Source: Eledone cirrhosa (lineage: Eukaryota). From it: DNA of 64,000 bases. The notes under the pieces are model-generated. The model had not been told where the DNA came from. It searched no databases and saw only the letters and a list, made by a program, of their open reading frames with translations. Positions 1,719-63,246 of this stretch are shown here, one piece after another. Location of the stretch: contig OZ024741.1 in NCBI GenBank assembly GCA_964016885.1, positions 303,738,001 to 303,802,000 of the forward strand. The letters are read 5' to 3'. Within the stretch, counting starts at the first letter, position 1; each line of letters starts with the position of its first letter. The position numbers were made by a program, and so were the translations under genes.

Positions 1719-2149
1719 TGTGTGTCTGTGTGTGTGTGTCTGTGTGTGTCTGTGTCTGACTTCGCACCTCTACTCGATAGTATCATTGTTCTCATTTGGT
1801 TTTAAAAAAAGTTTTTATGCATTACAAAACCATACATACATACATACATACATACATACATACATACATACATACATACATACATACATGCATGCATAAT
1901 ACATCATACATAAATGCATACATACATAAATGCATACATAAATGCATAGATAGGCATATTCTTATACTTTTGTATGTGTGTATACCTGTACGATCTCTCT
2001 CTCCCTCTCGTTGCATATGTATATATATATAGAGAGAGAAATAGCCGTCGAAACGGCTTGAGCTCTGCCGTCGAGGTCACACTTTTTCCTATACATATAT
2101 ATATATATGTATATATATGTTATATATATATATAAACGAAGGTAAAATC

Positions 2150-5889: not shown

Positions 5890-6071
5890 CATTAGAATGG
5901 GTGAATATTTAAATCGTATTTTAATTTATTTAAAAAATTGTTTAATGTTTACTTGTTCCGCTCATTTTTATAGTTCTGGTATCTCAAATTAGTACCATTC
6001 AACAACAATTATTATAGACACCGTATATATTTCCGTAGGTACTTAGTACCTGTTGGAATGTTTATATCATT

Positions 6072-6159
<88 letters not shown>

Positions 6160-6160
6160 T

Positions 6161-6365
6161 ATAGGAACGAGTAGGACCCCGACGGCTGAGCTCAAGCCGT
6201 TTCGACGGCTAATCTGGACTAAACTTAGTCCAGAATTACCCGTCGAAACGGCTTGAGCTCAGCCGTCGAGGTCCTACTCGTTCCTATTACCCACTCTACT
6301 ACCCTAAGTATTGAGTACTTTGGTGCGTTATGGTCCATCTGGTTCCTTACCACATTTCCTTCGTT
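6161..6365. mobile_element. ~205-bp fold-back element in (TA)n carrying two hammerhead 3' halves
   Basis: 6161-6287 is a near-perfect palindrome; each arm has GAAAC-GGCT-tgagctc-AGCC-GTC; a second copy lies at 41070-41263 in the opposite orientation. Confidence 0.75.
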
Positions 6366-6496
6366 ATATACATATATATATATATCAACAGTTTTGCAAG
6401 AGATGTCAACTTGAATGGACCTATTATTTTTATCTAAAGACATGTTTCCCAATTCCATCCCGCCCGTCCCCTTAATCTATTTTATTTCTCATTCTT

Positions 6497-6532
6497 TCTT
6501 CTGATGAAAGACTAGCGTCCGAAACGTTAAGA
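6497..6532 (+). ncRNA. Minimal type I hammerhead ribozyme motif
   Basis: TCTT-CTGATGA-a-AGAC-tagc-GTCC-GAAAC-GTT-AAGA; the first stem II pair is mismatched. Confidence 0.65.
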
Positions 6533-7787: not shown

Positions 7788-7823
7788 TCTTCTGATGAAG
7801 GACTAGTGTCCGAAACGTAAAGA
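7788..7823 (+). ncRNA. Minimal type I hammerhead ribozyme motif
   Basis: TCTT-CTGATGA-a-GGAC-tagt-GTCC-GAAAC-GTA-AAGA; intact core, stem I TCTT/AAGA, palindromic ACGT stem III. Confidence 0.8.
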
Positions 7824-14150: not shown

Positions 14151-17100
14151 CTACAGGCTGAGGTAGAGAGAAGGCCCATTCACACGGGCCATTCTCGCAA
14201 CTTTCACCCACCTTTCATAAAACTGGCTGGAGTGGAGCACCTCTCTCTCCATCCTGATCCTTCTTCCGAAATGGTATCGGAAAAAAAGGACCAGTTGTTG
14301 GCCGGAGAGAAAGATGTCCGACCTCAGCCCTTTCAGACGCGTCCACCATATAGCCTCTTTTACTATGGCTATTACACAGAGGAAGACCGCCTCTCCTTCA
14401 TTTGTGAAGTGGGGAGGCGGCTTGATCGTTACAATGGACTCGGTGGTCAACCTAATTGGTCCCACCCGTGACAGCAGTTGTTCGACATAGCCCCACAGAT
14501 CGGCAACGCCCGGGAAGTGCACCAATGCGTGCGCGACGGTTTCCTCATCGCGCACGCATCTGGGACAGATCTTTTTCGAGGGGTCCCTACCCGGGCACCC
14601 GTGTCTGTAGAGCTTATCCCGAACGGGCAGAGCCCCTCGGTAGCACTGCCAGGCCAAGGACTTCTGGAAGTTGTCCATAGGTCCCGGGCCGAAAGTCCTA
14701 CCGAATAGACTGGCCAGTTCGTCCTCCTCCATGCCTAGGGTTTCTCCGAGGGCGTCGTCGCACCCGCTAACCACCATCTCTCTATAGAATGACGAGGTGG
14801 AGTCTCCGTCGATAGCCGGGTCCGCCTGCCAGAGAGCCGTGAGCGCCTGGGCACACTCGGTGTGCCAGTCGCCCAGTTTTCTCGGTCTTTGCTTCACCCA
14901 GGACTGCAGCTCGGTGAGCGAGACGAGCCTCGGGAAGGCTCGCCTCACAAACGGGGCCCACACCGGTTGACCGGTGAGGAATACCTGGAGGTGCCTTAGC
15001 CTCAATGCGTGTTTACGCATTTTTAGCCACGGCATCCCCAGCCCTCCTTTCAAAGGGTGTTGACAGCAGATGGATCTCCTCACCAGAGGAGATCTCTTTT
15101 TCCAAAGGAAATAAAAGAGGGCGCGCTCCATTTTGGCGAGGATCTCACCCGGGCAAGGCACGACAGTCAAGCGGTAATAGATGACAGACGCTATGTAAGC
15201 GTTCGCCACCTCCGCCCGACCTTTCAGGGATAGTTTGCACTCGGCCCACTTCTGGGTCAGTGCAAACACCCTATTCGTCACCTCACCCCAGTTTTTCTCC
15301 ACCTGGAGGTCCGGTCCGAACCAGACCCCAAGCAACTTCACCGGGCCCTCCGTCCACCGTCCGACGATACCGTCGTACGACATCGCTTTGCCCCTCCACT
15401 CGCCGAGTTGCAAAGCGACTGACTTGTCCCGGTTCAGCTTAGCTCCTGTCAACCTTTCGTACTCCTCCAGTAAGGTGCCGATTGCCTCGATTTCCGAGGT
15501 GGTCGACACCATTACTGTTACGTCATCGGCATAGGCCGACACCACTTTGCGCAATCCCGGTTCCAAAGGGATGCCCTGCAACAACTCCAACTTCCGCAGT
15601 AGTGGCTCGAGAGCCAATACATACAGAAGGGAGGAGAGAGGGCATCCCTGTCGGATGGAGCGGGAGATTTCGAATTGCTCCGAAAGGTAGCCGTTCACCT
15701 TGACTCTAGAGCAGATGCGGCTGCTGTGCATGGCAGTGATCCAGCCCCTGAAAACGGGTCCGAACCCAGCCGCCGCTAGCACCGCATCCAGGTAACCATG
15801 GTCCACCCTATCGAACGCTTTAGACTGATCTAAATTTATCAGGGCCCCACCAAAGCCGGGTTCGTTCCCAACCCTCTCTATGATGTATCGCATGAGGTGG
15901 AGGTTGTCGTTGATGGACCTGGACGGGATAGCGCATGTCTGCGCATCTCCCACCAGGCCCCCCACGACAAGCGCCAACCTCTTCGCTAACACCTTGGCCA
16001 AAATCTTTAACTCTGCATTTAGCAGAGTTATGGGCCTAAAATTACTAATGTCATCCCCCTTGTTCTCGTCCTTCCTCACTAGCGAGACTACGCCCTTGGT
16101 CACAGAACAGGGAATTCTCCCGTTCTGTTGCCAGTTGCAGTAGACCGCCTCAAGGAGATCGGGGAACAAGTCCGGCATATTAATATATAGTTCGTAGGGC
16201 AGACCATCGAGCCCTGGAGATTTGCGTTTGCCGCATAGGCTCAGCACGTCCCCTATTTCAGCAGCCGAGATCGGCCCGTCGCAGGACCTCGCCTCCCTGT
16301 CCGAAAGACGCGGCAGGCCGTCGAGGTATGGACCGAAATCCACATCCCCAACCGGCCCCCCGCCCCTCCCAAACAATTGAGCAAAGTGCCTTTGAAAGGC
16401 CTCGCACATTTGCTTAGGTTCAAGGATCAACCGTCCATCCTGGTCTCGCAAAGACCGGATAGTGGATTTAATCCCACTTTTCGCTTCTGTCACGCGGGCC
16501 CAGCTAACAGCTTTGGTCCCCTCGTTTCCCAGAGCAGGTATTTTGCTTCGGACAACGCAGCCTTCGTGTTTCGCGTCGAAGAACTGGTTCAAGACCGTTC
16601 TCGACGCTTGCACTCTGGCCACGTTGCCGCTTCTCATTGCCTCTTCAACATTAACTACCAACTCCCTTTCCTTCCTATTTCTATCTGAGGCTAACTCCTT
16701 ACTAACTCCTATTGAAACTACTCTAATCTCTCTTTTTAGAGAGCCCCACCACCTGTTGTTGACGATGGCACCCGTCAACCGCTCCTTAACTAAGGTTCTA
16801 ATCCGGTCCCTGTAAGCTCTACTTGCCGGTAAGGACAAGTTGAGCTTCCAGTAACCGGGCCCCTGCCTATGCGTTCTATCAAGGTGGACTACGCAGGTCA
16901 CTAACTTGTGGTCTGAATAGCCCACCATGAGCATTTCTGGACAACTTAAAAAGTCCCTATCCTTAATTCTAACTAAGAACCTATCTAGGTACGATCTAGA
17001 TTGACCACTGTTATTTGACCAGGTCCAGGTTGGTACAGTCAGAAAATCTAGTCGGTATCTATCGGCCAGGTCAAATCGGCCGATTAACCCCTTAAGGCTG

Positions 17101-17588
17101 TTACACCCCCCTCTATCGGGACATGCCCTTACATAGTCCCAACGTGCATCTAGGATACCATTCCAGTCCCCCACTAAAAGCAAGGAGCGGGACGTCCCTA
17201 GAAAAGTCTCCAGACGATGGAAGAAGTCCGACCGCATTGCCCCAAAAGGGGCGTATACGGCGACAAGCCTAAAAGCTTCGCCTTCACCATTGCCAAGGTC
17301 CAGAACCACGAGTCAACCCTCCGGGTCCAAGTGTACCGTCTGTGTAGCGAGACCCAGATGTTTTTGCAGCAGAACGACAACCCCACCCCAACCTCCGGGC
17401 TGACAGAGAGATGCGTGCATCTCAAAGTCATCAAAGGTGGGGGCTAGCTGTCGCATGCTGCTGATCCGGGCCTCGCAAATAACCATCACATTTATACATT
17501 GTGACCTGAGGTCATTTAGAAGTTTAGCTTGCTTCCAAGGTGAGCCCAGGCCGAGTGCATTTAGACAACCTACTCTTAAGACAGCCAT
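14151..17588 (-). pseudogene. ORF2: apurinic endonuclease + reverse transcriptase, one in-frame stop at 17313-17315
   Basis: GCLNALGL, GDWN, SYLDRFL, SDH (APE); KSPGLDG, FRPITLLN, DQSKAFDRV, RQGCPLS, YADD (RT); ORFs 17313-17588 and 14151-17309 are in frame across PEG*LVVLD. Confidence 0.95.
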
Positions 17589-17611
17589 GTTAGTGGCAAA
17601 GAAAGAGGCAC

Positions 17612-19392
17612 TTACCTCTCTGCGTCCCGGGGTTCGGGCCGCTCAGTTTCCATGGGGCTGGTGGAGGGGTTGATGGGTGGGGTGGTGGTTTGTGGTGGTG
17701 TTGGGGTATTAGTGTGTGGAGGGGTTGGGATCTTTGGAGTTGTGTGGGTGTTTGAGGAGGGGAGGGGAAAACCTTTCAGGAGGACGCGGTTGAGTGGCCT
17801 GGTGCAGGGTGGGCCCACGTCCTCAGGGTAAATGTCTTTCAAAGTTTTGAAAATGTCAAGTGGGATTTTCACCATTTTCAGGTTAGGGAGTCCCATTGCC
17901 GTTACGAAATTCGGCACTTCGGTTTGTATCGAAGGGTTGTTTTCTATTTTTTCAGTTAGGTTTTTATTGTTTTTGTTTATGTATGTGTAGAGTTTTTGTG
18001 TTGTTGTGTTTGTTTTTGCTTGTTGTTGTTGAATGAGTTTGCGTTTTATTGTCTGTGTTGTGTTGTCAGGTGGGGTTATTTTTGTTTGTGTGGTGTGTGT
18101 ACGTTTTTTTCTTTTCACTTTTTGGAAGGGAGCCCCCTCGTCTTCCGACGATATGAGCTCCTCTTCCGTATTGGAGGGGAGGGGTATATCTCCGGGTTGT
18201 GTATGAACTGCGTGTGTTTTTGTATTTGTGTTCTGTGGGGTGGGGCTGGGTGGGACCGTGTTTTGGGTTGTTTTCTTGAGCTGTTGTTGATGTTGTTGTT
18301 GTGGTGGTGGTGGTGGTGTTGTTGGTTTTTGTTGTCGTTCTGGTGGTGATGGTAGTGTATTTTGTTGTTTTTGTGATGGTGGTGTTGGTTGTTTTTGTTG
18401 TTGTTGTGGTGTTTGTAGCAGTGGTTTTTTTGTTGTTAGTAGAGGGCAGGCCGTCCTCAGGTGACCTCTGCCAGCGCAGTGGTAACATGAGGGTCTCCTG
18501 CCTTCCACTGTGATATTTATGAAGGTTCGCTCATCCAGTAGCACTCGGTCGGGTATTCCGGAGATTCTCTCAGGTGTCATCTGTAAGAGAACCTCCAGAC
18601 TTTTCCCCCCGAACAGTCCACTGGTGGACTCCCCTGCTGAAATAAGTATATCCTTTTCTAGGTCGGTAAATCCTGTTAGGACGGACCAGATGTTAATTTC
18701 TGGCGTTGGGCTCCATATTCTTATTCTTTGTGTTCTTCTTCCTTTATATGTGGGGAAGAAGGTGTATTGTGGTGACACTATAGGTGCCACCGAATATTTT
18801 TGCGCCAGCATTTCGTCCTTCATTCGGACCATAATGCTGGCATACAGCTTTCCTCTTTGAATAAAGAGTATGTCGTTTTTAATGTCTTTCAGAACCAGCT
18901 CATTTGACTTTCGGTCAATTGAGCTGGCTTTCTTGTTGCGTTGGTTATGGTCCTGTAGGTTACGGTATTCTTATAAACATGTTGACGCACTTCTTCTGGG
19001 GAGTTGATCGTAAAAGAACCATCCTCCTCAAAAGATACGTATTTTCTAGCCTCTAGCAAATTTTCCTTAGCGTTCGTGATGTCTATGGGTTTGTATTCCG
19101 TGGCTTTCCTGAGTGTTTGGGCAAAAGAAATTTTGTTGTCTTTGTTTGTTGTTGTAATGTTGTTGGTTTCCTTATTTGTGGTGTTATTTTTTTCTTCAAA
19201 ATTAAGTTTTTCATTTGAATTAATATTCTTTTTTTTTTCATTGGAGAGGAGGGGCTGTTCAACAGTTTGAACTGTTGTTTCCTCTTTCCCGCTTATTTTT
19301 TTGGTAGGCGTGGCGTTCGCTTCCAATATGGCGATATCGTGTTCGACGATATCGTTATCAACGATATCGTTATCAACGATATCGATAAACAT
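17612..19392 (-). pseudogene. ORF1 (gag-like zinc-knuckle protein), frameshift near 18900
   Basis: CYHCAGRGHLRTAC knuckle; ORFs 18889-19392 and 17612-18832 are joined by a single frameshift. Confidence 0.8.
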
Positions 19393-21733: not shown

Positions 21734-23088
21734 TTTCTCTTTCTCTTAATTTCGAGTATATTTTTTTGACCGGCCACCTTCCTGGTGGCAAGGTTGTAAA
21801 AGAAAAGAAATTGTCATCCCTTGAATCGCAAGAATGTTTTGCATATTTTGAAGGTGCCAGCTATCGCAGCCATTTGTAGACTATGAATTAGGGAGCTGCG
21901 CTTTTTGTCCGCAAATCCAAGTTCGGTCATACTTTGGTCCAAGCGGGTTGGTATATAACCCGTAGCACCAATAATGATGGGTATGAAGCTAAAGGTGTAT
22001 CTTGGATACTGGATTTGTAAGCTCCTCATCAATGGTCCGTAGATGTCCTCCTTCTCCTGTATTTTTCTGACAACGTTTACATCAAGTGGGCAGCTGACCT
22101 CCACAACAGAACACGTTTTCAATGTGTGGTCCCAAACTACAATATCAGGCCGGTTGTGCTTTAATTTGGTGGCAGTTTTTATTTTCAGGTTCCACCAGTA
22201 TTCCTTAGTGCCATCTGTCTCAATATATTCTTCCTCGTTTGTTGTTAATTTTGTTTTCCGAAGTGCGTTCCAGATAGTTCTAGCTATCCCATCGTGTCTC
22301 ATGGGGAGGTAGTAGCGAGATGACATTCTTTCGCAGCTGGCAACAATGTGGCTTACATCCTCGATCTTTGTTTTACATAGCCTACATTTATTGTCAGCTG
22401 CTGGCCCTCCTCTTTTGTGCAGCAGATATTTGGTAGGGAGTTCTTGTTCCTGTATTGCATAGAGATATCCCTCAAGGTGTGATGTCATAAACTTGTCGGA
22501 ACTCCATGCCAGGCTTTTTGAGTGGTTTATCCCCTCTATGGTCTGTGTTTTACGCCTCAAGTATCCATGCACAACTTTCTCTGTAAATTGGTCAATTTTT
22601 TTTTCTTGTTTGAACATTGAATAGGATCTTCCGATTTCTCTGGGTGAGAGATTTATATCAGGCTTTATTCCATATCTCTCCTCCAGATCAGTCGCTATTC
22701 TAATGATATTTCTTTTTTCATGCTCATAAACCTGAGCAAGATGGTCGCCAACCTTTTTCCTCTGTTGAAGGTGTTGCTTCAGTGTTACTATCCGGGTCTC
22801 ATATGTTGTTAATATTGATTTTAGAGCCCGGCCACCTTCCTTGCGTGAGAAGTATAGCCTATCCACATCACCATTGATGTTAAAGTTCCCAGTAACACTG
22901 AGAAGTTTACGAGTTCTAACATCCATCTCACTTAGTTCTTGCAATGACCAGTTCAGTAGGCCAAATGTTGGCGTTATAATTGGCACAGCATAGGTATTGT
23001 GGGCAATGTATTTGTTGTATGCTGACAGTTCTGATGACCATATTTTTTTTACTCTTCTGAGGTATTCAGTTCTGGTTCTCTCCTTATT
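21734..23088 (-). mobile_element. 5'-truncated R4/Dong-type (restriction-like endonuclease) non-LTR retrotransposon
   Basis: Open frame with CRLC..EDVSHIVASC, RHD and NRPDIVV...VVEVSCP...KEDIY (PD-D/ExK); (TATG)n on both sides. Confidence 0.9.
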
Positions 23089-23490
23089 TATGTATGTATG
23101 TATGTATGTATGTATGTATGTATGTATATAATGTATACATACATTATAGATATATATATATGTTGAAAAGTGTATACATTTTGGGGTCACCTATATAACT
23201 CATGTGTGTTGATTTTTGTAAACAGAAATCTAACCAACTAGTTTCAGTTCTTGTTAAAACATCAGGGATCGTTTACGTATTTCTGGCTACAAAAAAAAAA
23301 AAAAAAAAATTGATTGTGATTTATCTCCCATGTCTACGTTTTCACAGCAAGGTTAGATGTATGTTTACGAAAAACACATGTAGACACATTTACCTTACAT
23401 TTCTACTTAGAAATGGGAACGCCACTATTTTGACGTTCGACCAGCTACAATTAGCGGTTAAATATCCCTCATACATTATATATATATATT

Positions 23491-25016: not shown

Positions 25017-28000
25017 TGTTGGTGTATCTAGTGGTTTCCTGGGTTGGTGTATCTAGTGGTTGCCTGGGTTGGTGTATCTAGTGGTTTCCTGGGTTGGTGT
25101 ATCTAGTGGTTGCCTGGGTTGGTGTATCTAGTAGTTGCCTGTGTTGGTATATCTAGTAGTTGCCTGTGTTGGTGTATCTAGTAGTTGCCTGTGTTGGTGT
25201 ATCTAGTGGTTTCCTGGGTTGGTGTATCTAGTGGTTTCCTGGGTTGGTGTATCTAGTGGTTGCCTGGGTTGGTGTATCTAGTAGTTGCCTGTGTTGGTGT
25301 ATCTAGTAGTTGCCTGTGTTGGTGTATCTAGTGGTTTCCTGGGTTGGTGTATCTAGTGGTTGCCTGGGTTGGTGTATCTAGTGGTTTCCTGGGTTGGTGT
25401 ATCTAGTGGTTGCCTGGGTTGGTGTATCTAGTGGTTGCCTGGGTTGGTGTATCTAGTAGTTGCCTGTGTTGGTGTATCTAGTGGTTGCCTGGGTTGGTGT
25501 ATCTAGTGGTTGCTGTGTTGGTGTATCTAGTGGTTGCCTGGGTTGGTGTATCTAGTAGTTGCCTGGGTTGATGTGACTAGTGGTTTCCTGGGTTGGTGTA
25601 TCTAGTGGTTGCCTGGGTTGGTGTATCTAGTAGTTGCCTGTGTTGGTGTATCTAGTGGTTGCCTGGGTTGGTGTATCTAGTGGTTGCTGTGTTGGTGTAT
25701 CTAGTGGTTGCCTGGGTTGGTGTATCTAGTAGTTGCCTGTGTTGGTGTATCTAGTGGTTGCCTGTGTTGGTGTATCTAGTGGTTGCCTGTGTTGGTGTAT
25801 CTAGTGGTTTCCTCGGTTGATGTGATTAGTGGTTGCCTGGGTTGATGTATCTAGTGGTTGCCTGGGTCGGTGTATCTATTGGTTGCCTGGGTTGATGTGA
25901 CTAGGGTTGCCTGTGTTGGTGTATCTAGTGGTTGCCTGTGTTGGTGTATCTAGTGGTTGCCTGCGTTGTTGTATCTAGTAGTTGCCTGTGTTGGTGTATC
26001 TAGTGGTTGCTTGGGTTGATGTGACTAATGGTTGCCTGTCTTGGTTTATCTAGTGGTTGCCTGTATTGGTGTATCTAGTGGTTGCCCGGGTTCATGTCAC
26101 TAGTGGTTGCCTGTGTTTGTGTATCTAGTGGTTGCCTGGGTTGGTGTATCTAGTGGTTGCCTGTGTTGGTGTATCTAGTGGTTGCCTGTGTTGGTGTGAC
26201 TAGTGGTTGCCTGTGTTGGTGTATCGAGTAGTTGCCTGTGTTGGTGTATCTAGTGGTTGCCTGTGTTGGTGTATCTAGTGGTTGCCTGGGTTGGTGTATC
26301 TAGTAGTTGCCTGTGTTGGTGTATCTAGTGGTTGCCTGTGTTGGTGTATCTAGTGGTTTCCTCGGTTGATGTGACTAGTGGTTGCCTGGGTTGATGTGAC
26401 TAGTGGTTGCCTGGGTTGGTGTATCTAGTGGTTGCCTCTGTTGGTGTATCTAGTGGTTGCCTGTGTTGGTGTATCTAGTGATTGCCTGTGTTGGTTTATC
26501 TAGTGGTTGCCTGGGTTGATGTGACTAGTGGTCGCCTGGGTTGATGATCTAGTGGTTGCCTGTGTTGGTTTATCTAGTGGTTACCTGGGTTGATGTGACT
26601 AGTGGTTGCCTGTGTTTGTGTATCTAGTGGTTGCCTGGGTTGGTGTATCTAGTGGTTGCCTGTGTTGGTGTATCTAGTGGTTGCCTGTGTTGGTGTGACT
26701 AGTGGTTGCCTGGGTTGGTGTATCTAGTGGTTACCTGGGTTGGTGTATCTAGTGGTTGCCTGTGTTGGTGTGACTAGTGGTTGCCTGTGTTGGTGTGACT
26801 AGTGGTTGCCTGGGTTGGTGTATCTAGTGGTTACCTGGGTTGGTGTATCTAGTGGTTGCCTGTGTTGGTGTGATTAGTGGTTGCCTGTGTTGGTGTATCT
26901 AGTAGTTGCCTGTGTTGGTGTATCTAGTGGTTGCCTGTGTTGCGGTATCTAGTGGTTGCCTGGGTTGGTGTATCTAGTAGTTGCCTGTGTTGGTGTATCT
27001 AGTGGTTGCCTGTGTTGGTGTATCTAGTGGTTTCCTCGGTTGATGTGACTAGTGGTTGCCTGGGTTGATGTGACTAGTGGTTGCCTGGGTTGGTGTATCT
27101 AGTGGTTGCCTCTGTTGGTGTATCTAGTGGTTGCCTGTGTTGGTTTATCTAGTGGTTGCCTGGGTTGGTGTATCCACTGGTTGCCTGTGTTGGTGTATCT
27201 AGTGGTTGCCTGTGTTGGTGTATCTAGTATTTGCCTGTGTTGGTGTATCTAGTGGTTGCCTGTGTTGGTGTATCTAGTGATTGCCTGTGTTGGTTTATCT
27301 AGTGGTTGCCTGTGTTGGTGTATCTAGTGGTTGCCTGTGTTGTTGTGACTAGTGGTCGCCTGGGTTGATGATCTAGTGGTTGCCTGTGTTGGTTTATCTA
27401 GTGGTTACCTGGGTTGATGTGACTAGTGGTTGCCTGGGTTGATGCATCTAGTGGTTGCCTGTGTTGGTGTATCTAGTGGTTGCCTGTGTTGGTGTATCTA
27501 GTGGTTGCTTGGGTTGATGTGACTAATGGTTGGCTGTGTTGGTGTATCTAGTGGTTGCCTGTGTTGGTGTATCTAGTGGTTGCCTGGGTTCATGTGACTA
27601 GTGTTTGCCTGTGTTTGTGTATCTAGTGGTTGCCTGGGTTAGTGTATCTAGTGGTTGCCTGTGTTGGTGTATCTAGTGGTTGCCTGGGTTGGTGTATCTA
27701 GTAGTTGCCTGTGTTGGTGTATCTAGTGGTTGCCTGTGTTGGTGTATCTAGTGGTTGCCTGTGTTGGTGTATCTAATGATTGCCTGTGTTGGTTTATCTA
27801 GTGGTTGCCTGTGTTGGTGTATCTAGTGATTGCCTGTGTTGGTTTATCTAGTGGTTGCCTGTGTTGGTGTATCTAGTGGTTGCCTGTGTTGGTGTATCTA
27901 GTGGTTTCCTCGGTTGATGTGACTAGTGGTTGCCTGGGTTGATGTGACTAGTGGTTGCCTGGGTTGGTGTATCTAGTGGTTGCCTCTGTTGGTGTATCTA

Positions 28001-31000
28001 GTGGTTGCCTGTGTTGGTGTATCTAGTGATTGCCTGTGTTGGTTTATCTAGTGGTTGCCTGGGTTGATGTGACTAGTGGTCGCCTGGGTTGATGATCTAG
28101 TGGTTGCCTGTGTTGGTTTATCTAGTGGTTACCTGGGTTGATGTGACTAGTGGTTGCCTGTGTTTGTGTATCTAGTGGTTGCCTGGGTTGGTGTATCTAG
28201 TGGTTGCCTGTGTTGGTGTATCTAGTGGTTGCCTGTGTTGGTGTGACTAGTGGTTGCCTGGGTTGGTGTATCTAGTGGTTACCTGGGTTGGTGTATCTAG
28301 TGGTTGCCTGTGTTGGTGTGACTAGTGGTTGCCTGTGTTGGTGTGACTAGTGGTTGCCTGGGTTGGTGTATCTAGTGGTTACCTGGGTTGGTGTATCTAG
28401 TGGTTGCCTGTGTTGGTGTGATTAGTGGTTGCCTGTGTTGGTGTATCTAGTAGTTGCCTGTGTTGGTGTATCTAGTGGTTGCCTGTGTTGCGGTATCTAG
28501 TGGTTGCCTGGGTTGGTGTATCTAGTAGTTGCCTGTGTTGGTGTATCTAGTGGTTGCCTGTGTTGGTGTATCTAGTGGTTTCCTCGGTTGATGTGACTAG
28601 TGGTTGCCTGGGTTGATGTGACTAGTGGTTGCCTGGGTTGGTGTATCTAGTGGTTGCCTCTGTTGGTGTATCTAGTGGTTGCCTGTGTTGGTTTATCTAG
28701 TGGTTGCCTGGGTTGGTGTATCCACTGGTTGCCTGTGTTGGTGTATCTAGTGGTTGCCTGTGTTGGTGTATCTAGTATTTGCCTGTGTTGGTGTATCTAG
28801 TGGTTGCCTGTGTTGGTGTATCTAGTGATTGCCTGTGTTGGTTTATCTAGTGGTTGCCTGTGTTGGTGTATCTAGTGGTTGCCTGTGTTGTTGTGACTAG
28901 TGGTCGCCTGGGTTGATGATCTAGTGGTTGCCTGTGTTGGTTTATCTAGTGGTTACCTGGGTTGATGTGACTAGTGGTTGCCTGGGTTGATGCATCTAGT
29001 GGTTGCCTGTGTTGGTGTATCTAGTGGTTGCCTGTGTTGGTGTATCTAGTGGTTGCTTGGGTTGATGTGACTAATGGTTGGCTGTGTTGGTGTATCTAGT
29101 GGTTGCCTGTGCTGGTGTATCTAGTGGTTGCCTGGGTTCATGTGACTAGTGTTTGCCTGTGTTTGTGTATCTAGTGGTTGCCTGGGTTAGTGTATCTAGT
29201 GGTTGCCTGTGTTGGTGTATCTAGTGGTTGCCTGGGTTGGTGTATCTAGTAGTTGCCTGTGTTGGTGTATCTAGTGGTTGCCTGTGTTGGTGTATCTAGT
29301 GGTTGCCTGTGTTGGTGTATCTAATGATTGCCTGTGTTGGTTTATCTAGTGGTTGCCTGTGTTGGTGTATCTAGTGATTGCCTGTGTTGGTTTATCTAGT
29401 GGTTGCCTGTGTTGGTGTATCTAGTGGTTGCCTGTGTTGGTGTATCTAGTGGTTTCCTCGGTTGATGTGACTAGTGGTTGCCTGGGTTGATGTGACTAGT
29501 GGTTGCCTGGGTTGGTGTATCTAGTGGTTGCCTCTGTTGGTGTATCTAGTGGTTGCCTGTGTTGGTGTATCTAATGATTGCCTGTGTTGGTTTATCTAGT
29601 GGTTGCCTGTGTTGGTGTGACTAGTGGTTGCCTGGGTTGGTTTATCTAGTGGTTGCCTTTGTTGGTGTATCTAGTGGTTACCTGGGTTGATGTGACTAGT
29701 GGTTGCCTGGGTTGATGTATCTAGTGGTTGCCTGTGTTGGTGTATCTAGTGGTTGCCTGTGTTGGTGTATCTAGTGGTTGCTTGGGTTGATGTGACTAAT
29801 GGTTGCCTGTGTTGGTGTATCTAGTGGTTGCCTGTGTTGGTGTATCTAGTGGTTGCCTGGGTTCATGTGACTAGTGGTTGCCTGTGTTTGTGTATCTAGT
29901 GGTTGCCTGGGTTGGTGTATCTAGTGGTTGCCTGTGTTGGTGTATCTAGTGGTTGCCTGTGTTGGTGTGACTAGTGGTTGCCTGGGTTGGTGTATCTAGT
30001 GGTTACCTGGGTTGGTGTATCTAGTGGTTGCCTGTGTTGGTGTGACTAGTGGTTGCCTGTGTTGGTGTATCTAGCGATTGTTTGTGTTGGTTTATCTAGT
30101 GGTTGCGTGTGTTGGTGTATCTAGTGGTTGCCTGTGTTGTTGTGACTAGTGGTCGCCTGGGTTGATGATCTAGTGGTTGCCTGTGTTGGTTTATCTAGTG
30201 GTTACCTGGGTTGATGTGACTAGTGGTTGCCTGGGTTGATGTATCTAGTGGTTGCCTGTGTTGGTGTATCTAGTGCTTGCTTGGGTTGATGTGACTAATG
30301 GTTGCCTGTGTTGGTGTATCTAGTGGTTGCCTGTGTTTTGTGTATCTAGTGGTTGCCTGGGTTCATGTGACTAGTGGTTGCCTGTGTTTGTGCATCTAGT
30401 GGTTGCTTGGGTTGGTGTATCTAGTGGTTGCCTGTGTTGGTGTATCTAGTGGTTGCCTGTGTTGGTGTGACTAGTGGTTGCCTGGGTTGGTGTATCTAGT
30501 GGTTACCTGGGTTGGTGTATCTAGTGGTTGCCTGTGTTGGTGTGACTAGTGGTTGCCTGCGTTGGTGTATCTAGTGGTTGCCTGTGTTGGTGTATCTAGT
30601 GGTTATCTGGGTTGATGTGACTAGTGGTTGCCTGGGTTGATGTATCTAGTGGTTACCTGGGTTGGTGTGACTAGTGGTTGCCTGGGTTGGTGTATCTAGT
30701 TGTTGCATGTGTTGGTGTATCTAGTGGTTGCATGTGTTGGTGTATGTAGTGGTTGCCTGGGTTGGTGTATCTAGTGGTTGCCTGTGTTGGTGTATCTAGT
30801 GGTTGCCTGTGTTGATGTATCTAGTGGTTGCCTTTGTTGGTGTGACTAGTGGTTGCCTGGGTTGGTGTATCTAGTGGTTGCCTCTGTTGGTGTGACTAGT
30901 GGTTGCCTGGGTTCGTTTATCTAGTGGTTGCCTTTGTTGGTGTATCTAGTGGTTGCCTGGGTTGATGTGATTAGTGGTTGCCTGGGTTGATGTATCTAGT

Positions 31001-32035
31001 GGTTGCCTGGGTTGGTGTATCTAGTGGTTACCTGGGTTGGTGTATCTAGTGGTTGCCTGTGTTGGTGTGACTAGTGGTTGCCTGGGTTGGTTTATCTAGT
31101 GGTTGCCTGTATTGGTGTATCTAGTGGTTGCCTGGGTTGGTGTATCTAGTGGTTGCCTGTGTTGGTTTATCTAGTGGTTGCCTGGGTTGGTGTATCTAGT
31201 GGTTGCCTGTGTTGGTGTAGCTAATGGTTGCTTGTGTTGGTGTATCTAGTGGTTGCCTGTGTTGGTTTATCTAGTGGTTGCCTGGGTTGGTGTATCTAAT
31301 GGTTGCCTGTGTTGATGTGACTAGTGGTTGTCTGTCTTGGTGTATCTAGTGGTTTCCCGGGTTGATGTGATTAGTGGTTGCCTGGGTTGGTGTGACTAGT
31401 GGTTGCCTGTGTTGGTGTATCTAGTGGTGGCCTATGTTGGTGTCTCTAGTGGTTGCCTGTGTTGATGTATCTAGTGGTTGCCTGGGTTTATGTGACTAGT
31501 GGTTGCCTGTGTTGGTGTATTTATAGTGGTTTGCCTGTGTGGGTGTATCTAGTGGTTGCCTTGGTTGGTGTATCTAGTGGTTGCCTGTGTTGGTGTGACT
31601 AGTGGTTGCCTGTGTTGATGTGACTAGTGGTTGCCTGGGTTGATGTGACTAGTGGTTGCCTGGGTTGGTGTATCTAGTGGTTGCCTGGGTTGGTGTATCT
31701 AATGGTTGCCTGGGTTGGTGTATCTAATGGTTGCCTGTGTTGGTGTATCTAGTGGTTGCCTGTGTTGGTGTATCTAGTGGTTGCCTGTGTTGGTGTATCT
31801 AGTGGTTGCCTGTGTTGATGTATCTAGTGGTTGCCTGTGTTGGTGTATCTCGTGGTTGCATGGGTTGGTGTATCTAGTAGTTGCCTGGGTTGATGTGACG
31901 AGTGTTTGCCTGGGTTGATGTGACTAGTGGTTACCTGGGTTGATGTGACTAGTGGTTACCTGAGTTGATGTATCTAGTGGTTGCATGTGTTGGTGTATCT
32001 AGTGGTTGCATGTGTTGGTGTATCTAGTGGTTGTC
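25017..32035. repeat. Satellite/minisatellite, 25-bp unit GGTGTATCTAGTGGTTGCCTG(T/G)GTT, about 280 copies
   Basis: Direct inspection; rare variants recur at 1548-bp spacing. Confidence 0.97.
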
Positions 32036-33525
32036 TATATTGAATCTAGTGGCAGTCTACGTTGATGGGTTTAGTGGTTGTCTATGTTGAGTCTAGTTGT
32101 GGCTTTCGTTGATGAGCCCAGTGGTGTTGTATATTGTGTCTAGTAGTGGTCTGTATTGAGGTTAGCGGTGGTCTGTTGAGGCTAGTGGTAGCGTTAGTTG
32201 ATGAGTCTATTAGTGGTTTATATTGAGTATAGTGGCGGTCTGTATTGAGTTTAGTGTTGGTCTATGTTGATTCTATTGCAGGTCTATATTGAGTTTAGTG
32301 TTGGTCTATGTTCTGTCTATTGCAGATCTATAGTGAGTTTAGTGGTGGTCTATGTTGAGTCTATTGCAGGTCTATATTGAGATTAGTGGTGGTCTATGTT
32401 GAGTCTATTGCTGGTCTATGTTGAGGCTAGTTTTGGTCTATGTTGAGTCTATTGCTGGTCTATGTTGAGTTCAGTGGTGGTCTATGTTGAGTCTATTGCT
32501 GGTCTATGTTGAGGCTAGTGGTGGTCCATGTTGAGTTTATTGCAGGTCTATATTGAGTTTAGTGGTAGTCTATGTTGAGTCTAGTGCTGGTCTATATTGA
32601 GTCCATTGCTGGTCTATGTTGAGTCTATTGCTGGTCTATATTGAGTTTAGTGGTGGTCTATGTTGAGTCTAGTGCTGGTCTATATTGAGTCTAGCGATGG
32701 TCTATGTTGAGTCTATCGCTGGTCTATATTGAGTTTAGTGGTGGTCTATGTTGAGTCTAGTGCTGGTCTATATTGAGTCTAGCGATGGTCTATGTTGAGT
32801 CTATTGCTGGTCTATATTGAGTTTAGTGGTGGTCTATGTTGAGTCTAGTGCTGGTCTATATTGAGTCCATTGCTGGTCTATGTTGAGTCTATTGCTGGTC
32901 TATATTGAGTTTAGTGGTGGTCTATGTTGAGTCTAGTGCTGGTCTATATTGAGTCTAGCGATGGTCTATGTTGAGTCTATTGCTGGTCTATATTGAGTTT
33001 AGTGGTGGTCTATGTTGAGTCTAGTGCTGGTCTATATTGAGTCTAGCGATGGTCTATGTTGAGTCTATTGCAGGTCTATATTGAGTTTAGTGGTGGTCTA
33101 TGTTGAGTCTATTGCTGGTCTATGTTGAGGCTAGTGGTGGTCTATGTTGAGTCTATTGCTGGTCTATGTTGAGTTCAGTGGTGGTCTATGTTGAGTCTAT
33201 TGCTGGTCTATGTTGAGGCTAGTGGTGGTCTATGTTGAGTCTAGTGCTGGTCTATATTGAGTTTAGTGGTGGTCTATGTTAAGTCGATTGCTGGTCTATA
33301 TTGAGTCTAGTGGTGGTCTATGTTGAGTCTATTGTTGGTCTATGTTGAGTCTATTGCTGGTCTATATCGAAGCTAGTGATGGTCTGTGCTGTGTCTAGTG
33401 ATGCTCTATGTTGAGTATAGTGGCGGTTTATATTGAGTCTAGTGATGGTCTATATTGAGTTTAGTGGTGGTCTATGTTGTATATAGTGGTGGGCTTGTTA
33501 ATGAGACTAATGCTGGTCTATATTG
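32036..33525. repeat. Satellite/minisatellite, 22-bp unit GGTCTAT(G/A)TTGAGT(C/T)TA(T/G)TG(C/G)T
   Basis: Direct inspection; contiguous with and alignable to the 25-mer. Confidence 0.95.
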
Positions 33526-34456
33526 AAGTGACGTATTGTGTCCTCAATTGTTCTAATTCAACGTTAGTGTTCTAGTAAAAAAAGAGAATTCTAACAAATT
33601 GATATCTTCTCATTCTCCATAACGTTAGAATATCCTGACTTTATAGCTCACAAATGTTATATAGTTTTGTCGTGTAACATTTGTCTGTATTCGTGACTAA
33701 TTTAAAGCTAGCTTCATCGAACATTTGATCCACTTCACAATTGTAGAGGTATGTTCTGTTATTTAATCGGAAAAGATTACCCACAGATGGTTGAATCGAT
33801 AAAGGTTCAGATTACTCGTTGAAGTGTCGAGCGTTCATACTTGTTTATCGATTCTGCCTACATTATATCTCCAAGTAGTTATGTAACTTAATGAGATTGT
33901 CCTTAACAGACGAATAAAAGCATCATATTTGACATGAGGTTCCTTTAGGGCTTTTTAATGAATATTAACCTCGGAATACACCAGAAGGTTTAAAAATATA
34001 TATTTAAAAAATAATGAAGACGAGTGACCTAGGATGTTCGGCACACCGTTGCAAGGTCGTGAGTTCGATACTCGGCAGCGTGTTTCCCTAGTCCACACAG
34101 CTGGCAAAAATCAGTTGTACCTGTAATTCGAAGGAGCCTTGCCACATTATGTGTCAAGCTGAATTTCCTTAATCACGTTAAGAATAGACGTGTCTGTGGA
34201 ATGCTCAGCCACGTGCACGTTAATTTCTCGGGCAGACTGCTCCGATTATCGAATCAACCGGAACATTAGTCATCGGAACCAACGGTGGTCCAATACACAA
34301 CATAAAAGAAAAAGAGAAGGAAAAAAACAAAAGCCAATATTTATTAAACAATTATCTACAGTATTTATTATAATATATCTACAGTCATTCGCGTTTTACA
34401 GACATAACTTTATTTTCAAACAAATAACTTCTATACAAACAATCTTGGTCCCTAAC

Positions 34457-38299: not shown

Positions 38300-38758
38300 C
38301 TTGGGGAGGGTCATATTGTTATAATAATATTGCCAGAATTAATAACAGAACACTCACTGTTTGGTTGGTTTTCGCTTCTGTATCTTTTATATCAGTTAAT
38401 TCATTCGGACCTCAATGTTTACCATTGACTGACCAACGGTAAAAAATACAGATATAATATAGATATAAACACATATACATAGTCGAACAAAGTTGTTTCG
38501 TTGCACATCTGCAACATCGTCAGTGGTGCTATTATGTTCCCCCTGTTGTATTGTATATCTACGCCATCATTATTTTATCTGTTTATTTATTTATTTATTT
38601 ATTTATTTTTGTCTTCTTCTCTACGCATGCGTTTGCGTGTGTGTATAGTATTTGGTGTGTGTTCGCGTTTGGGTGACTGTGTTTTGGTTATTGTATTCTA
38701 TCTTAGTTTACTAGTGTCTGCTTATATGTGTTTGTTGTTATTGTGTTTGTGTATATAT

Positions 38759-38801
<43 letters not shown>

Positions 38802-39693
38802 TATTTCTCTTAAGTCAGTATTGTTTGTTTGGGTGTTGTTATTCCATTCATTTTTTCTGTTTAGCTTTGGCCTTCTAAGTTCTGTTTCGCTTGCCTCTCT
38901 GATTTGCCTGTCTGCTGGGTCATTTCTATGTTTAGATATTATTTTAATTTCTATGTTGTCTATGTTACCGTCATGTTTTTGTCTGGCGTGTTCGTATAGT
39001 ACTGAACCATTTTTTCGTCCTTTTAGTTCCCCCTCAGTGTTGGTCTATCCTTTCACCTATTCTACGAGCTGTCTCGCCTATGTATGTTGTTGTCATGTTT
39101 CTGCAAGTACCCTCTGTACATCTTATGCTATAGACTACATTTCTAGTTTTACAGTTTATCTGGGTTTACTTTACATATGATACATTTCCTATTAGTACAG
39201 TGGGTTTTCTTAAAAGGGTATTTTTTGCTGATCAGGGATTTTATGGTAGTTCCTGGCTTTTCTACCACTTTAATATTTAAGTGGGTCTTTCTCGAGGCTT
39301 TTCTACACTGGTTAGCTAATTTCCCTCCAGGGGTAGCGTCCACTAACATGACACTCTGGTATCTCTGGTTGTCGTACCATGAGGTGGTTTTCCCTATCTT
39401 ATGTTTAGTCCTATCTAAGCTATTCCATGATTTGCTCCTGTATAATGGGCAAATTCCTTTCATGTCCAGTTCTATGAGGGTCTTATACTTCTCCGTGGCT
39501 CCTTTGTATACTCTGATTCTGTCTCTTTGGTTGTAGCCAGAGAACTGCATGCGGTTGATGAAGTGTTGGATGTCTCTTTCCATTTCAGTTGGATCGCACA
39601 TGCCGGACACGTTCTGCGATCAGAATATTAAACTTATAGAATATTAAGCACTACTGGACATTGCTGAGTTTTTGTGTATCAGGTATTTGGAGG
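38299..39693 (-). mobile_element. Penelope-like element, 5'-truncated, left arm of inverted pair
   Basis: FINRMQFSGY...PLYRSKSW...ATPGGKLA, frameshifted GIY-YIG, and a 3' region with a hammerhead motif. Confidence 0.85.
38479..38533 (-). ncRNA. Hammerhead ribozyme-like motif
   Basis: CTGACGA-t-GTTGCA-gatg-TGCAAC-GAAAC-aacttt-GTT; stem I imperfect. Confidence 0.6.
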
Positions 39694-40486
39694 CCAACAG
39701 AAATGGAAAGAGACATCCAACACTTCATCAACCGCATGCAGTTCTCTGGCTACAACCAGAGAGACAGAATAAGAGTATACGAAGGAGCCACGGAGAAGTA
39801 TAAGACCCTCATAGAACTGGACATGAAAGGAATTTTCCCATTATACAGGAGCAAATCATGGAATAGCTTAGATAGGACTAAACATAAGATAGGGAAAACC
39901 ACCTCATGGTACGACAACCAGAGATACCAGAGTGTCATGTTTATGGACACTAACACTGGAGGAAAATTAGCTAACCAGTGTAGAAAGGCCCCAAGAAAGA
40001 CCCACTTAAAGATTAAAGTGGTAGAAAAGCCAGGAACTACCATAAAATCCCTGATCAGCAAAACATACCCTTTTAAGAAAACCCACTGTACTAATACGAA
40101 ATGTATTTTATGTAAAGTAAACCAAGATAAACTGTAAAACTAGAAATGTAGTCTATAGCATAAAATGATGTACAGAGGGTACTTGCAGAAACATGACAAC
40201 AACATACATAGGCGAGACAGCTTGTAGAATAGGTGAAAGGATAGACCAACACTGAGGGGAACTAAAAGGACGAAAAAATGGTTCAGTACTATACGAACAC
40301 GCCAGACAACAACATGACGGTAACATAGACAACATAGAAATTAAAATAATATCTAAACATAGAAATGACCCAGCAGACAGGCAAATCAGAGAGTCAAGTG
40401 AAATAGAACTTAGAAGGCCAAAGCTAAACAGAAAAAATGAATGGAATAACAACACCCAAACAAACAATACTGACTTAAGAGAAATA

Positions 40487-40517
<31 letters not shown>

Positions 40518-40681
40518 ATATATACACAAGCTCAATAACAACAAACACATATAAGCAGACACTAGTAAACTAAGATAGAATACAATAACCAAAACACAGT
40601 CACCCAGACGCGAACACACACCAAATACTATACACACACGCAAACGCATGCGCAGAGAAGAAGACAAAAAAAAAAAAATAA

Positions 40682-40720
<39 letters not shown>

Positions 40721-41030
40721 ACAGATAAAATAAAGATGGCGTAGATATACAATACAACAGGAGGAACATAATAGCACCACTGACGATGTTGCAGATGTGC
40801 AACGAAAGAACTTTGTTCGACTATGTATATGTGTTTATATCTATATTATATCTGTATTTTTTACCGTTGGTCAGTCAATGGTAAACATTGAGGTCCGAAT
40901 GAATTAACTGATATAAAAGATACAGAAGCGAAAACCAACCGAACAGTGAGTGTTCTGTTATTAATTCTGGCAATATTATTATAACAATATTTGTTTCGAC
41001 ACACGATTTCATATCAAAAACGTCGCAAAG

Positions 41031-41034: not shown

Positions 41035-41069
<35 letters not shown>

Positions 41070-41071
<2 letters not shown>

Positions 41072-41259
41072 CGAAGGAAATGTGGTAAGGAACCAGGTGG
41101 ACCATAACGCACCAAAGTACTCAATACTTAGGGTAGTAGAGTGGGTAATAGGAACGAGGTAGACCCCGACGGCTGAGCTCAAGCCGTTTCGACGGCTAAT
41201 TCTAGTCCAGAATTAGCTGTCGAAACGGCTTGAGCTCAGTCGTCGGGGTCCTACTCGTT

Positions 41260-41263
<4 letters not shown>
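41070..41263. mobile_element. Second copy of ~200-bp fold-back element in (TA)n
   Basis: Reverse complement of 6161-6365 with the same ends and a shortened centre. Confidence 0.75.
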
Positions 41264-41320
<57 letters not shown>

Positions 41321-47243: not shown

Positions 47244-47288
47244 AGTCATAGTTCTTTCGTCACACACTCTGTGACCTCTTCAGTGACT
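47244..47288 (-). ncRNA. Minimal type I hammerhead ribozyme motif
   Basis: AGTCA-CTGAAGA-g-GTCACA-gagtg-TGTGAC-GAAA-GAAC-TA-TGACT; lies within a Penelope-3'-end-like module at 47088-47670. Confidence 0.75.
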
Positions 47289-47805: not shown

Positions 47806-47897
<92 letters not shown>

Positions 47898-47901
<4 letters not shown>

Positions 47902-48159
47902 GTAGAACACTGGAAGGTAATATCCGTAGTGGTAGAACACTCAGTCCATGGGACGAGTTAGGTAGAAGTGGTTACACAACAGTTAGTTCACCATACCAAG
48001 AACAATTGTTTCACCTTAGCGGATCCTCAGCTTGTAATCCGCTAAGGTGAAACAATTGTTCTTGGTATGGTGAACTAACTGTTGTGTAACCACTTCTACC
48101 TAACTCGTCCCATGGACTGAGTGCTCTACCACTACGGATATTACCTTCCAGTGTTCTAC

Positions 48160-48163
<4 letters not shown>
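47898..48163. mobile_element. 266-bp near-perfect palindromic element in (TA)n
   Basis: ~127-bp arms and a ~12-nt loop; each arm carries GAAAC-AATT-GTT; a diverged single tail lies at ~9155-9232. Confidence 0.8.
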
Positions 48164-48204
<41 letters not shown>

Positions 48205-58354: not shown

Positions 58355-58490
58355 TCATCATTTTACGATCGTTTCTAGGATATATGTGTGTGTGTTGGTA
58401 TGTATATCATATAGTTCTATGTAAACATTTTACAAACTATCAGAGGAAATATACATACTTACACATATATATGCTGTCTTCAGAAATAAT
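58355..58490 (-). ncRNA. Hammerhead ribozyme-like motif with ~100-nt stem II
   Basis: ATTATTT-CTGAAGA-[long AT-rich hairpin]-GAAAC-GATC-GTA-AAATGAT. Confidence 0.6.
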
Positions 58491-63217: not shown

Positions 63218-63246
63218 GACGTTTCGGGCATAAGCCCTTCTTCAGG
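63218..63246 (-). ncRNA. Minimal hammerhead core in a Penelope-3'-end-like module (63128-63480)
   Basis: CTGAAGA-a-GGGC-ttat-GCCC-GAAAC-GTC; stem I weak; the tail resembles the 6.5 kb and 7.8 kb modules. Confidence 0.6.

What the first reader, a model, noticed from the sequence alone, without database searches (positions are those of the whole stretch)
6161..6365. Fold-back hairpin element whose symmetry axis sits at hammerhead stem II, present twice with the same ends
Seen: each arm reads outward GAAAC-GGCT-tgagctc-AGCC-GTC-g(a/g)ggtcct. This is the 3' half of a hammerhead (GAAA, stem III, GUC site, stem I strand), and the CUGANGA half is replaced by the mirror copy. The same asymmetric unit (short arm ending ttcctat, long arm ending ccttcgtt) recurs inverted at 41070-41263 with a shortened centre, and a half copy lies at 2040-2092. 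Inference: cDNA snapped back on the stem II hairpin during reverse transcription. The resulting two-3'-end unit may now move as a MITE-like Penelope parasite, and a partner RNA might supply the missing catalytic half in trans.
Basis: partly seen in the sequence, partly recalled or inferred. Interest (0 to 1): 0.8.

Follow-up and report, generated by a model that had tools for sequence, protein, structure and literature searches.

The report
Head-to-head stubs of a Penelope retrotransposon
The 207-base hairpin is two short end-pieces of a Penelope-type retrotransposon joined head to head inside a TA repeat; about 21,000 such stubs almost always pair one long end with one short end, which likely records how these elements copy their RNA onto both cut DNA strands at once.

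Summary
The hairpin is real and is no independent element. It is the shortest class of insertion of a young, (TA)n-targeting, Hydra-type Penelope-like element (PLE): 3,531-bp unit, intact 717-aa RT + GIY-YIG frame, tandem copies about 98-100% identical. The parent carries a full type I hammerhead with a U3-A8 core (UUGANAA; 0 of 97 arms read CUGANGA) and three compensatory pairs in stem II. Each stub is two 5'-truncated 3' ends joined head to head: 20,975 pair a short end with a long end (80-nt tail), against at most 255 short-short and 252 long-long. 95 of 108 sampled arms stop 8-18 nt upstream of GUC-GAAAC, at the far edge of stem II; centres differ copy by copy. Either arm can be the longer, and in kb-long versions each arm can hold sequence the other lacks, so one snapped-back cDNA cannot explain them. 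Best model (inferred): two cDNAs primed on opposite strands from two fixed RNA start sites, stalled at stem II, end-joined. Inverted truncated copies with a one-sided tail are known for PLEs; the strict long/short coupling and the stall were not found in print. No earlier scan note bore on it.

The parts
6063..6160 (.). (TA)n target repeat, left side
6161..6223 (-). Short arm: inverted, 5'-truncated 3' end of the parent PLE (subfamily A1), ending at the short start site, no tail
   Evidence: matches the parent unit at 93.8% over 64 nt
6221..6226 (.). Head-to-head joint; both arms break off in the 3' part of hammerhead loop II
6225..6367 (+). Long arm: 5'-truncated 3' end of the parent PLE with tail
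   Evidence: 97.2% to A1 parent L209 and 96.5% to L199 over 143 nt
6233..6244 (+). 3' strand of hammerhead stem II (one private change in this copy), ending in C11.1
6245..6267 (+). G12-A13-A14, stem III with the palindromic loop GAGCUC, and the GUC cleavage triplet (C17 = 6267)
6268..6272 (+). 3' strand of stem I
6288..6367 (+). 80-nt tail between the short and the long start site; present on one arm only
   Evidence: short end at 3451 of a 3,531-nt unit
6368..6386 (.). (TA)n target repeat, right side
41068..41264 (-). Second stub of the same subfamily, with its own joint, in (TA)n; long arm 41068-41203, short arm 41203-41264
2037..2092 (+). Single short-ended arm of subfamily C, truncated at the same stem II edge

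Best explanation
The hairpin is two 5'-truncated 3' ends of a Hydra-type Penelope-like retrotransposon joined head to head in a TA repeat, likely made when the element's protein primes one DNA copy on each cut strand from two fixed start sites 80 bases apart on the RNA, both copies likely stall just past hammerhead stem II, and host end-joining likely links them. Shown: the parent (RT + C-terminal GIY-YIG, hammerhead, tail, tandem units), the identity of both arms with its 3' end, the (TA)n target, the long/short pairing, the narrow truncation window, and copy-specific joints with blunt, microhomology or locally templated sequence. Inferred: cleavage and extension of both strands by a dimer (by analogy with the anole PLE PAc in vitro); that uncleaved RNA is the template (arms read through GUC); that re-forming stem II strips the cDNA off the RNA; Pol-theta-like joining with brief snap-back (pathway recalled); that the stubs are dead on arrival because they lack the RNA downstream of the long start site.
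For: Parent with the same tail and diagnostic bases, collinear RT-EN-3'UTR-hammerhead-tail-(TA)n: L209, L211; intact 717-aa frames in units 98.4-99.9% identical to L244, period 3,531 nt. Gradient of 5' truncation: 16,809 exact palindromic cores, 2,282 A/C arms reaching further into loop II (the pattern misses A2), 1,328 and 195 first-look candidates further upstream in subfamily B. Pairing: 20,975 short-long, at most 255 short-short, at most 252 long-long; 10 of 10 longer head-to-head insertions with both ends in view are short-long (L238, L239, L240, L241/242, L249, L209, L195, L198, L199, L203). Short ends also finish near full-length single copies (L211, L246, L247, L252, L254), so the short end is a start site. 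95 of 108 arm ends at 8-18 nt, long arm longer 24, short arm longer 22, tie 8; joints: 15 microhomology, 18 blunt, 21 with insertions, 2 of them poly(A/T). Arms of one stub differ by 1.44 bases against 4.92 between stubs (n = 55). Hammerhead precedes the ATG in tandems, so the starts are internal, as for PAc, which cleaves and extends both strands from two start sites (PMC11167929).
Against: No biochemistry and no RNA data. PAc in vitro showed no difference in start site between top and bottom strands, which does not by itself predict strict long/short pairing. The 76 copies with centre AAAA-TGA-TTTT carry a mirrored base absent from 51 of 51 long A-type arms, so some joint sequence is copied from the other arm. 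The stub sample was picked by patterns that need both GUC-GAAAC motifs within about 60 nt and comes from the start of contig C1, so it cannot show longer arms. Later shrinking of long palindromes could add to the short class. Whether one RNA or two serve as template is not resolved.
Confidence: 0.75

Rival explanations
1. One cDNA, primed at the long end, snaps back on itself near stem II, copies itself as far as the short end and jumps to the target TA repeat.
For: Arms of one stub nearly always share subfamily bases; explains long/short pairing directly; mirrored non-parental base in 76 centres; the short end resembles the TA target.
Against: The short-ended arm is the longer in 22 of 54 stubs and by hundreds to thousands of bases in L238, L241/242 and L195; short ends finish near full-length single copies; the shared centre lies in both polarities, about 13 and 13 by eye among 30; ties in arm length are not above chance (8 seen, 5.2 expected, P = 0.13).
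Confidence: 0.1
2. The 200-bp unit is itself a mobile non-autonomous element, re-copied whole by the PLE protein or a transposase (MITE-like).
For: Very high copy number with the same outer ends; one centre recurs 76 times, mostly in subfamily A1.
Against: 50 distinct oriented centres in 55 copies; one joint recurs in subfamilies A1, A2, A3 and C; the 76-copy centre occurs in A1, A2 and A3 and in both polarities; every subfamily but two minor ones (A3, A4; barely sampled as long arms) has long parents; the right inverted repeat lies 80 bp inside the end; stubs lack the sequence that follows the long start in tandems, and PAc needs RNA beyond its start sites.
Confidence: 0.07
3. Stubs are left over from longer head-to-head insertions whose unstable palindromic middle was deleted after insertion.
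For: Multi-kb perfect head-to-head insertions exist; joints look like end-joining scars; long palindromes are known to be unstable (recalled).
Against: Single, non-palindromic arms stop in the same window (window 2037, L063, L068, L097, L098); ends cluster in 11 nt in two diverged subfamilies; the youngest subfamily already has many stubs while its multi-kb palindromes persist.
Confidence: 0.08

Closest known systems
Hydra clade of EN+ Penelope-like elements (Craig et al. 2021, PMC8557442; e.g. Hydra-1_Obim, Penelope-13_HM)
   Same: Single ORF with RT and C-terminal GIY-YIG, DKT, CxCx5C linker, CxxC and CxH, (TA)n target; inverted 5'-truncated copy at the 5' end; tail at one end only. N-terminus visibly homologous to Hydra-1_Obim in the supplement (compared by eye).
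   Different: Another family: hammerhead core U3-A8 (none such in their File S2), long stems II and III, RWR for RWK, 3.53-kb unit, 80-nt tail (30-40 described for PLEs), intact young tandem copies, and about 21,000 minimal head-to-head stubs.
Poseidon element PAc of Anolis carolinensis in vitro (Frangieh et al. 2024, PMC11167929)
   Same: Hammerhead near the pLTR-ORF junction, two internal RT start sites that define the tail, cleavage and extension of both strands, AT-rich targets, uncleaved RNA as template.
   Different: Other clade; no strand bias in start site seen in vitro; joining of the two cDNAs and the inverted product were not shown. Here the genomic products pair one long with one short start in 97.6% of stubs.
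Minimal and variant hammerheads of PLEs (Cervera and de la Pena 2014, PMC4209133; Perreault et al. 2011, PMC3088659)
   Same: Type I topology, G10.1-C11.1, palindromic loop III, U3-A8 covariation (seen in Schistosoma Cercyon; reported active in vitro); dual motifs on opposite strands 100-700 bp apart were noted.
   Different: Here stem III is 5-6 bp and loop II about 33 nt; the stub keeps only the 3' half, twice; no Rfam hammerhead model matches the parent.
Microsatellite-targeting MITEs and non-LTR retrozymes
   Same: Short, non-coding, high copy, self-complementary, in (TA)n (MITEs); PLE-derived hammerhead sequence (retrozymes; bioRxiv 10.64898/2026.07.22.740005).
   Different: No inverted repeats at both termini, no fixed middle, direct derivation from a retroelement 3' end; no tandem units and no complete ribozyme.

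Membership tests
Penelope-like elements (parent) | Single ORF with PLE-type RT and GIY-YIG endonuclease | tested here: met
   717-aa frame with RT motifs and C-terminal GIY-YIG-like domain read by eye; 2,049 homologues at E <= 1e-20, many with PF26215, the best with PF01541. Pfam and PDB give no direct hit.
Penelope-like elements (parent) | Tandem or partial-tandem copies forming pLTRs, with a hammerhead in the pLTR | tested here: met
   3,531-nt tandem units with the hammerhead upstream of the ATG
Penelope-like elements (parent) | Inverted 5'-truncated copy and a tail at one end | tested here: met
   tail is 80 nt, longer than the 30-40 described
Hydra clade | DKT for DKG; CxCx5C linker; CxxC and CxH around the catalytic E/N; no CCHH finger; C-terminal EN | tested here: met
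   SDKT, CNCPDRSIC, CNLC, CKH in P0002; one cysteine only between the GIY- and YIG-like strands (against section 11, and Fig. S2 rows)
Hydra clade | N-terminal RWK motif | tested here: inconclusive
   RWR at the matching place
Hydra clade | Insertion into (TA)n | tested here: met
   30 of 30 best copies flanked by TA runs; 145 of 156 long ends classed as followed by TA
Hydra clade | Canonical hammerhead core; unit generally under 3 kb | tested here: not met
   0 of 97 long arms read CUGANGA; unit 3,531 nt. Filed therefore as a Hydra-type variant, not a plain member.
Hydra clade | Placement inside the clade on an RT tree | not tested
   Reference Hydra proteins were seen only in the paper's supplement and were not available to the tree tools
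Type I hammerhead ribozyme (parent) | Three stems around the core with paired 3-8, U4, G5, A6, free N7, A9, G12-A14, A15.1-U16.1, H17, G10.1-C11.1 | tested here: met
   RNAalifold gives the three-way junction on 18 arms; 95% of cells paired, 3 compensatory pairs in stem II, slid controls 27-50%. In 97 arms positions 4, 5, 6, 8, 9 are kept in 90-96, position 7 takes all four bases, position 3 is U in 80 and C in 16. The covariation comes from few subfamily-level events.
Type I hammerhead ribozyme (parent) | Self-cleavage after GUC | not testable with these tools
   No RNA holder listed; U3-A8 cores reported active in vitro (PMC3088659)
Type I hammerhead ribozyme (the stub itself) | 5' core half and stem I 5' strand present | tested here: not met
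   Replaced by the mirror arm; of 47 CUGANGA-plus-arm matches, the 30 read showed no recurring parent with that core
MITE | Terminal inverted repeats at both ends and a fixed internal sequence | tested here: not met
   Right repeat ends 80 bp inside; 50 centres in 55 copies
MITE | Target-site duplication and a matching DNA transposase | not testable with these tools
   A duplication cannot be read inside (TA)n; no transposase search was run once the retroelement parent was found
Naiad clade | N-terminal GIY-YIG before the RT | tested here: not met
   EN is C-terminal; five 13-base motifs of the stub were not found in the Craig supplement (line breaks could hide a match)
Non-LTR retrozyme | Tandem non-coding units each with a complete type I hammerhead | tested here: not met
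   Stubs are single, inverted and lack the 5' core

The most novel reading that the evidence does not exclude
PLE integration is an obligately two-ended reaction: one protein dimer primes both strands of a palindromic (TA)n target from two fixed, unequal start sites on the RNA, and the hammerhead's stem II acts as a built-in terminator of reverse transcription rather than (only) as a ribozyme, so that most events abort into 200-bp perfect hairpins. Many PLE families in this genome doing the same would make them a main source of double-stranded RNA for editing and silencing.
Probability: 0.35. Interest if true: 0.78.

Novelty: new variant of a known kind. Interest (0 to 1): 0.52.

Why it matters
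How PLEs form their inverted ends and one-sided tail is named as an open question by Craig et al. 2021, and the one in vitro study stops before the two cDNAs are joined. Here a natural data set of about 21,000 events gives a sharp rule (97.6% long-short), a sharp stall site, and an intact, near-identical 717-aa protein with a simple target, so the question can be tested directly. It also warns repeat annotation: such stubs look like MITEs. If the host is a cephalopod (recalled resemblance of genome size and repeat load; not tested), the unexplained high double-stranded RNA potential reported for octopus (PMC5625713) could come partly from such fold-backs.

Tried and rejected
CUGANGA parent: 47 matches; the 30 read were centre variants of stubs or single arms fused to unrelated sequence, some to other PLE hammerheads; the real parent was missed because its core is UUGANAA. 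Naiad as partner: suggested by (TA)n targeting and an 'HHR_half_core' note, rejected by domain order and sequence. R4/Dong-like frame in the window as partner: its 3' end is unrelated. A-to-I editing as source of the A/G variant: rejected, the variant is rare and on either arm. Trans-complementation: the parent's 5' half gains only 3-6 kcal/mol on the stub and leaves the -125.6 kcal/mol hairpin closed. Rfam: no hammerhead hit in the window or on four parent loci. Pfam and PDB: no hit on the 717-aa protein. Expression and cleavage ends: no RNA holder listed. Presence/absence: contigs of three runs did not span one test locus, no verdict; contigs laid on the parent hammerhead added nothing decisive. 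Excess of symmetric centres: not significant. Long-long pairs mixed two subfamilies in 4 of 17, short-long in 1-2 of 55, short-short in 0-1 of 21 (by eye): a hint that odd pairs use two templates, too few to rest on. Free folding gave the hammerhead shape for L125, L166 and L245 but not for L104, L114 or L199. Three look-ups of earlier scan notes gave nothing relevant.

Full report
OBSERVATION. The fold-back lies at 6161-6367 between TA runs, with an inverted copy at 41068-41264 and a single short arm at 2037-2092. It folds into a 63-bp hairpin, z = -19. The window lies in a 3.0-Gb genome, G000, at C2:303,738,001 onward.

A LARGE FAMILY WITH COPY-SPECIFIC CENTRES. The unit drew 2,833 first-look candidates; all 40 scored were full length, and the 30 fetched were flanked by TA on both sides. 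An exact two-motif pattern found 16,809 palindromic cores. Outer ends are constant, centres are not: 50 distinct oriented centres among 55 stubs from the start of contig C1. Subfamily-diagnostic bases are mirrored in both arms (1.44 differences between arms of one stub, 4.92 between stubs), while a rare variant sat on both arms of one insertion in only 1 case among the 100 matches listed, so arms are not homogenised after insertion.

THE PARENT. A CUGANGA search gave 47 matches and no recurring parent among the 30 read. A copy with a 300-bp centre (L066) led upstream: 1,328 then 195 candidates, ending in RT and GIY-YIG frames. For the stub's own subfamily (A1), L209 and L211 show RT, EN, 3' UTR, hammerhead and end on one strand; the window's long arm is 97.2% identical to L209. 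The youngest subfamily (A2) has intact 717-aa frames in tandem units of 3,531 nt, 98.4-99.9% identical to L244 in the 10 loci compared. The protein has DKT, CxCx5C, CxxC and CxH and lacks CCHH, the marks of the Hydra clade (PMC8557442 section 11), and differs in RWR, unit length and ribozyme core, so I call it Hydra-type. In tandems the hammerhead and tail lie just upstream of the ATG, so copying starts inside the RNA.

THE RIBOZYME. On 18 long arms from subfamilies A, B and C, RNAalifold returns the three-way junction with three compensatory pairs in stem II; these reflect a few subfamily-level changes, not many independent events. In 97 long arms none reads CUGANGA; position 7 takes all four bases, positions 4, 5, 6, 8 and 9 are nearly fixed, position 3 is U in 80 and C in 16. 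U3-A8 is a known covariant, seen in Schistosoma PLEs (PMC4209133) and reported active in vitro (PMC3088659). It is not among the Hydra hammerheads tabulated by Craig et al.. Activity here is untested, and many A1 parents carry an unpaired C3.A8.

ANATOMY OF THE STUB. Both arms are the parent's 3' end read outward, each cut at its 5' side. One ends at a short site, the other 80 nt further on. Genome-wide patterns give 20,975 short-long, at most 255 short-short (some matches are unrelated TA-rich DNA) and at most 252 long-long: 97.6% short-long where free choice would give 50%. These are exact-match lower bounds. Ten of ten longer head-to-head insertions with both ends in view, with arms from 0.1 to about 6.8 kb, are also short-long. 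In 54 A/C stubs, 95 of 108 arm ends lie 8-18 nt upstream of GUC-GAAAC, the far edge of the stem II 3' strand and the adjoining loop; the long arm is longer in 24, the short in 22, equal in 8; joints are 15 microhomology, 18 blunt, 21 with insertions, mostly local arm sequence, two poly(A/T) (one B-type stub left out). Unpaired single arms stop in the same place. The sample could not show arms longer than about 50 nt; genome-wide, 2,282 A1/C arms go further (A2 missed), about a twentieth of the stub arms.

MECHANISM. Shown: parent, target, pairing, truncation window, variable joints. Simple snap-back fails because neither arm need contain the other: in L238 the short-ended arm holds unit positions 1-583 missing from the long-ended arm, which alone has the outer tail, and short ends finish near full-length single copies. 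The anole PLE protein cleaves and extends both strands, starts at two internal sites that delimit the tail, is predicted to be a dimer, and uses uncleaved RNA (PMC11167929). I infer the same here: a symmetric (TA)n site is cut on both strands, one cDNA starts at each site, both usually stop after copying the stem II 3' strand (perhaps because the re-forming stem displaces the cDNA), and end-joining links them. A mirrored extra base in 76 centres, absent from 51 long arms, in both polarities and three subfamilies, suggests brief snap-back at the joint, as in synthesis-dependent end-joining (recalled). Stubs lack the sequence downstream of the long start and are probably dead. Against: PAc showed no strand bias of start site; there are no RNA or biochemical data; one versus two RNA templates is open.

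GENERALITY. A scan of TA-flanked inserts in the loci held showed fold-backs of many other families, several with hammerhead motifs and unequal ends (output partly cut, not counted). The window's 58380-63016 insertion is another Hydra-type family with one arm about 165 bp longer.

COMPARISON WITH PRINT. Inverted 5'-truncated copies, a one-sided tail and (TA)n bias are described for PLEs, and their origin is called unresolved (PMC8557442). Searches found no account of this family, of strict long/short pairing, or of a stall at stem II; the library lacks most subscription papers, Repbase and Dfam. Papers seen: PMC4209133 parts 1-2 of 4; PMC11167929 parts 1-2 of 4; PMC8557442 passages, sections 6, 7, 11, supplement parts 2 and 24 of 59 and term searches; bioRxiv 10.64898/2026.07.22.740005 part 1 of 5; passages only of PMC3088659, PMC5625713, PMC7151607, PMC3884650; others as listings.

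VERDICT. Observation confirmed; interpretation partly supported. An abortive insertion product of a new Hydra-type PLE, not a new kind of mobile unit (origin from this PLE about 0.97; two-primer mechanism about 0.75). Its value is as a large, clean natural record of PLE integration with an intact protein at hand. Interest 0.52.

Noticed in passing
window 6501-6524, 7792-7815, 47255-47283 (-), 63222-63245 (-), 38496-38523 (-), 40780-40807: Minimal hammerhead-like motifs with canonical CUGANGA cores, unrelated to the stub; 13 pattern matches in the window against 2.9 expected.
   Followed up: partly
window 58380-63016 (outer ends about 58167 and 63100): Long head-to-head insertion of another Hydra-type PLE (32-58% identity to the 717-aa protein); one arm runs about 165 bp further, both end in TA.
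   Followed up: partly
window 38313-40990 and 47855-48206: Two more PLE-like fold-backs in TA repeats; the second is long-long here while relatives in L106, L113 and L138 are short-long.
   Followed up: partly
L092, L093, L036, L136, L154, L037, L199 and others: Another TA-targeting family folds back just upstream of a complete canonical hammerhead and has unequal ends; its tail shares an 11-base motif (GTATTGAGTAC) with the tail studied here, a candidate protein-binding hairpin.
   Followed up: no
L198, L200, L201, L206, L208-L213: Many A1 parents have C3 opposite A8 in the core (13 of 97 arms read CUGAGAA), predicted to be unpaired; the family spread anyway, a hint that cleavage is dispensable.
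   Followed up: partly
L031, L049, L057; L034, L042; L051; L048; L053: Single arms fused to pieces of other PLE families, some at the same spot in independent loci and some inside the other family's stem II loop; selected by a CUGANGA pattern, so enrichment is unknown.
   Followed up: no
PMC8557442 supplement part 24 (Naiad_Ovul, Naiad_Obim 3' ends): These Naiad 3' ends also read hairpin, GUC-GAAAC, then a hairpin with a palindromic six-base loop and a G run, loosely like the arm here (by eye).
   Followed up: no
window 14151-18970 (-) and 21814-23190 (-): A two-frame non-LTR element (Tx1-like, label recalled) and an R4/Dong-like frame (label recalled; zf-RVT hit) interrupted or flanked by microsatellites.
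   Followed up: no
window 25017-32033 and 32023-33526: A 25-bp satellite of about 280 copies followed by a 44-bp array.
   Followed up: no
L236:8171-9494: The 5' end of a four-unit tandem insertion ends in at least 24 repeats of a 55-nt piece of the element, suggesting repeated slippage of the RT at that point.
   Followed up: no
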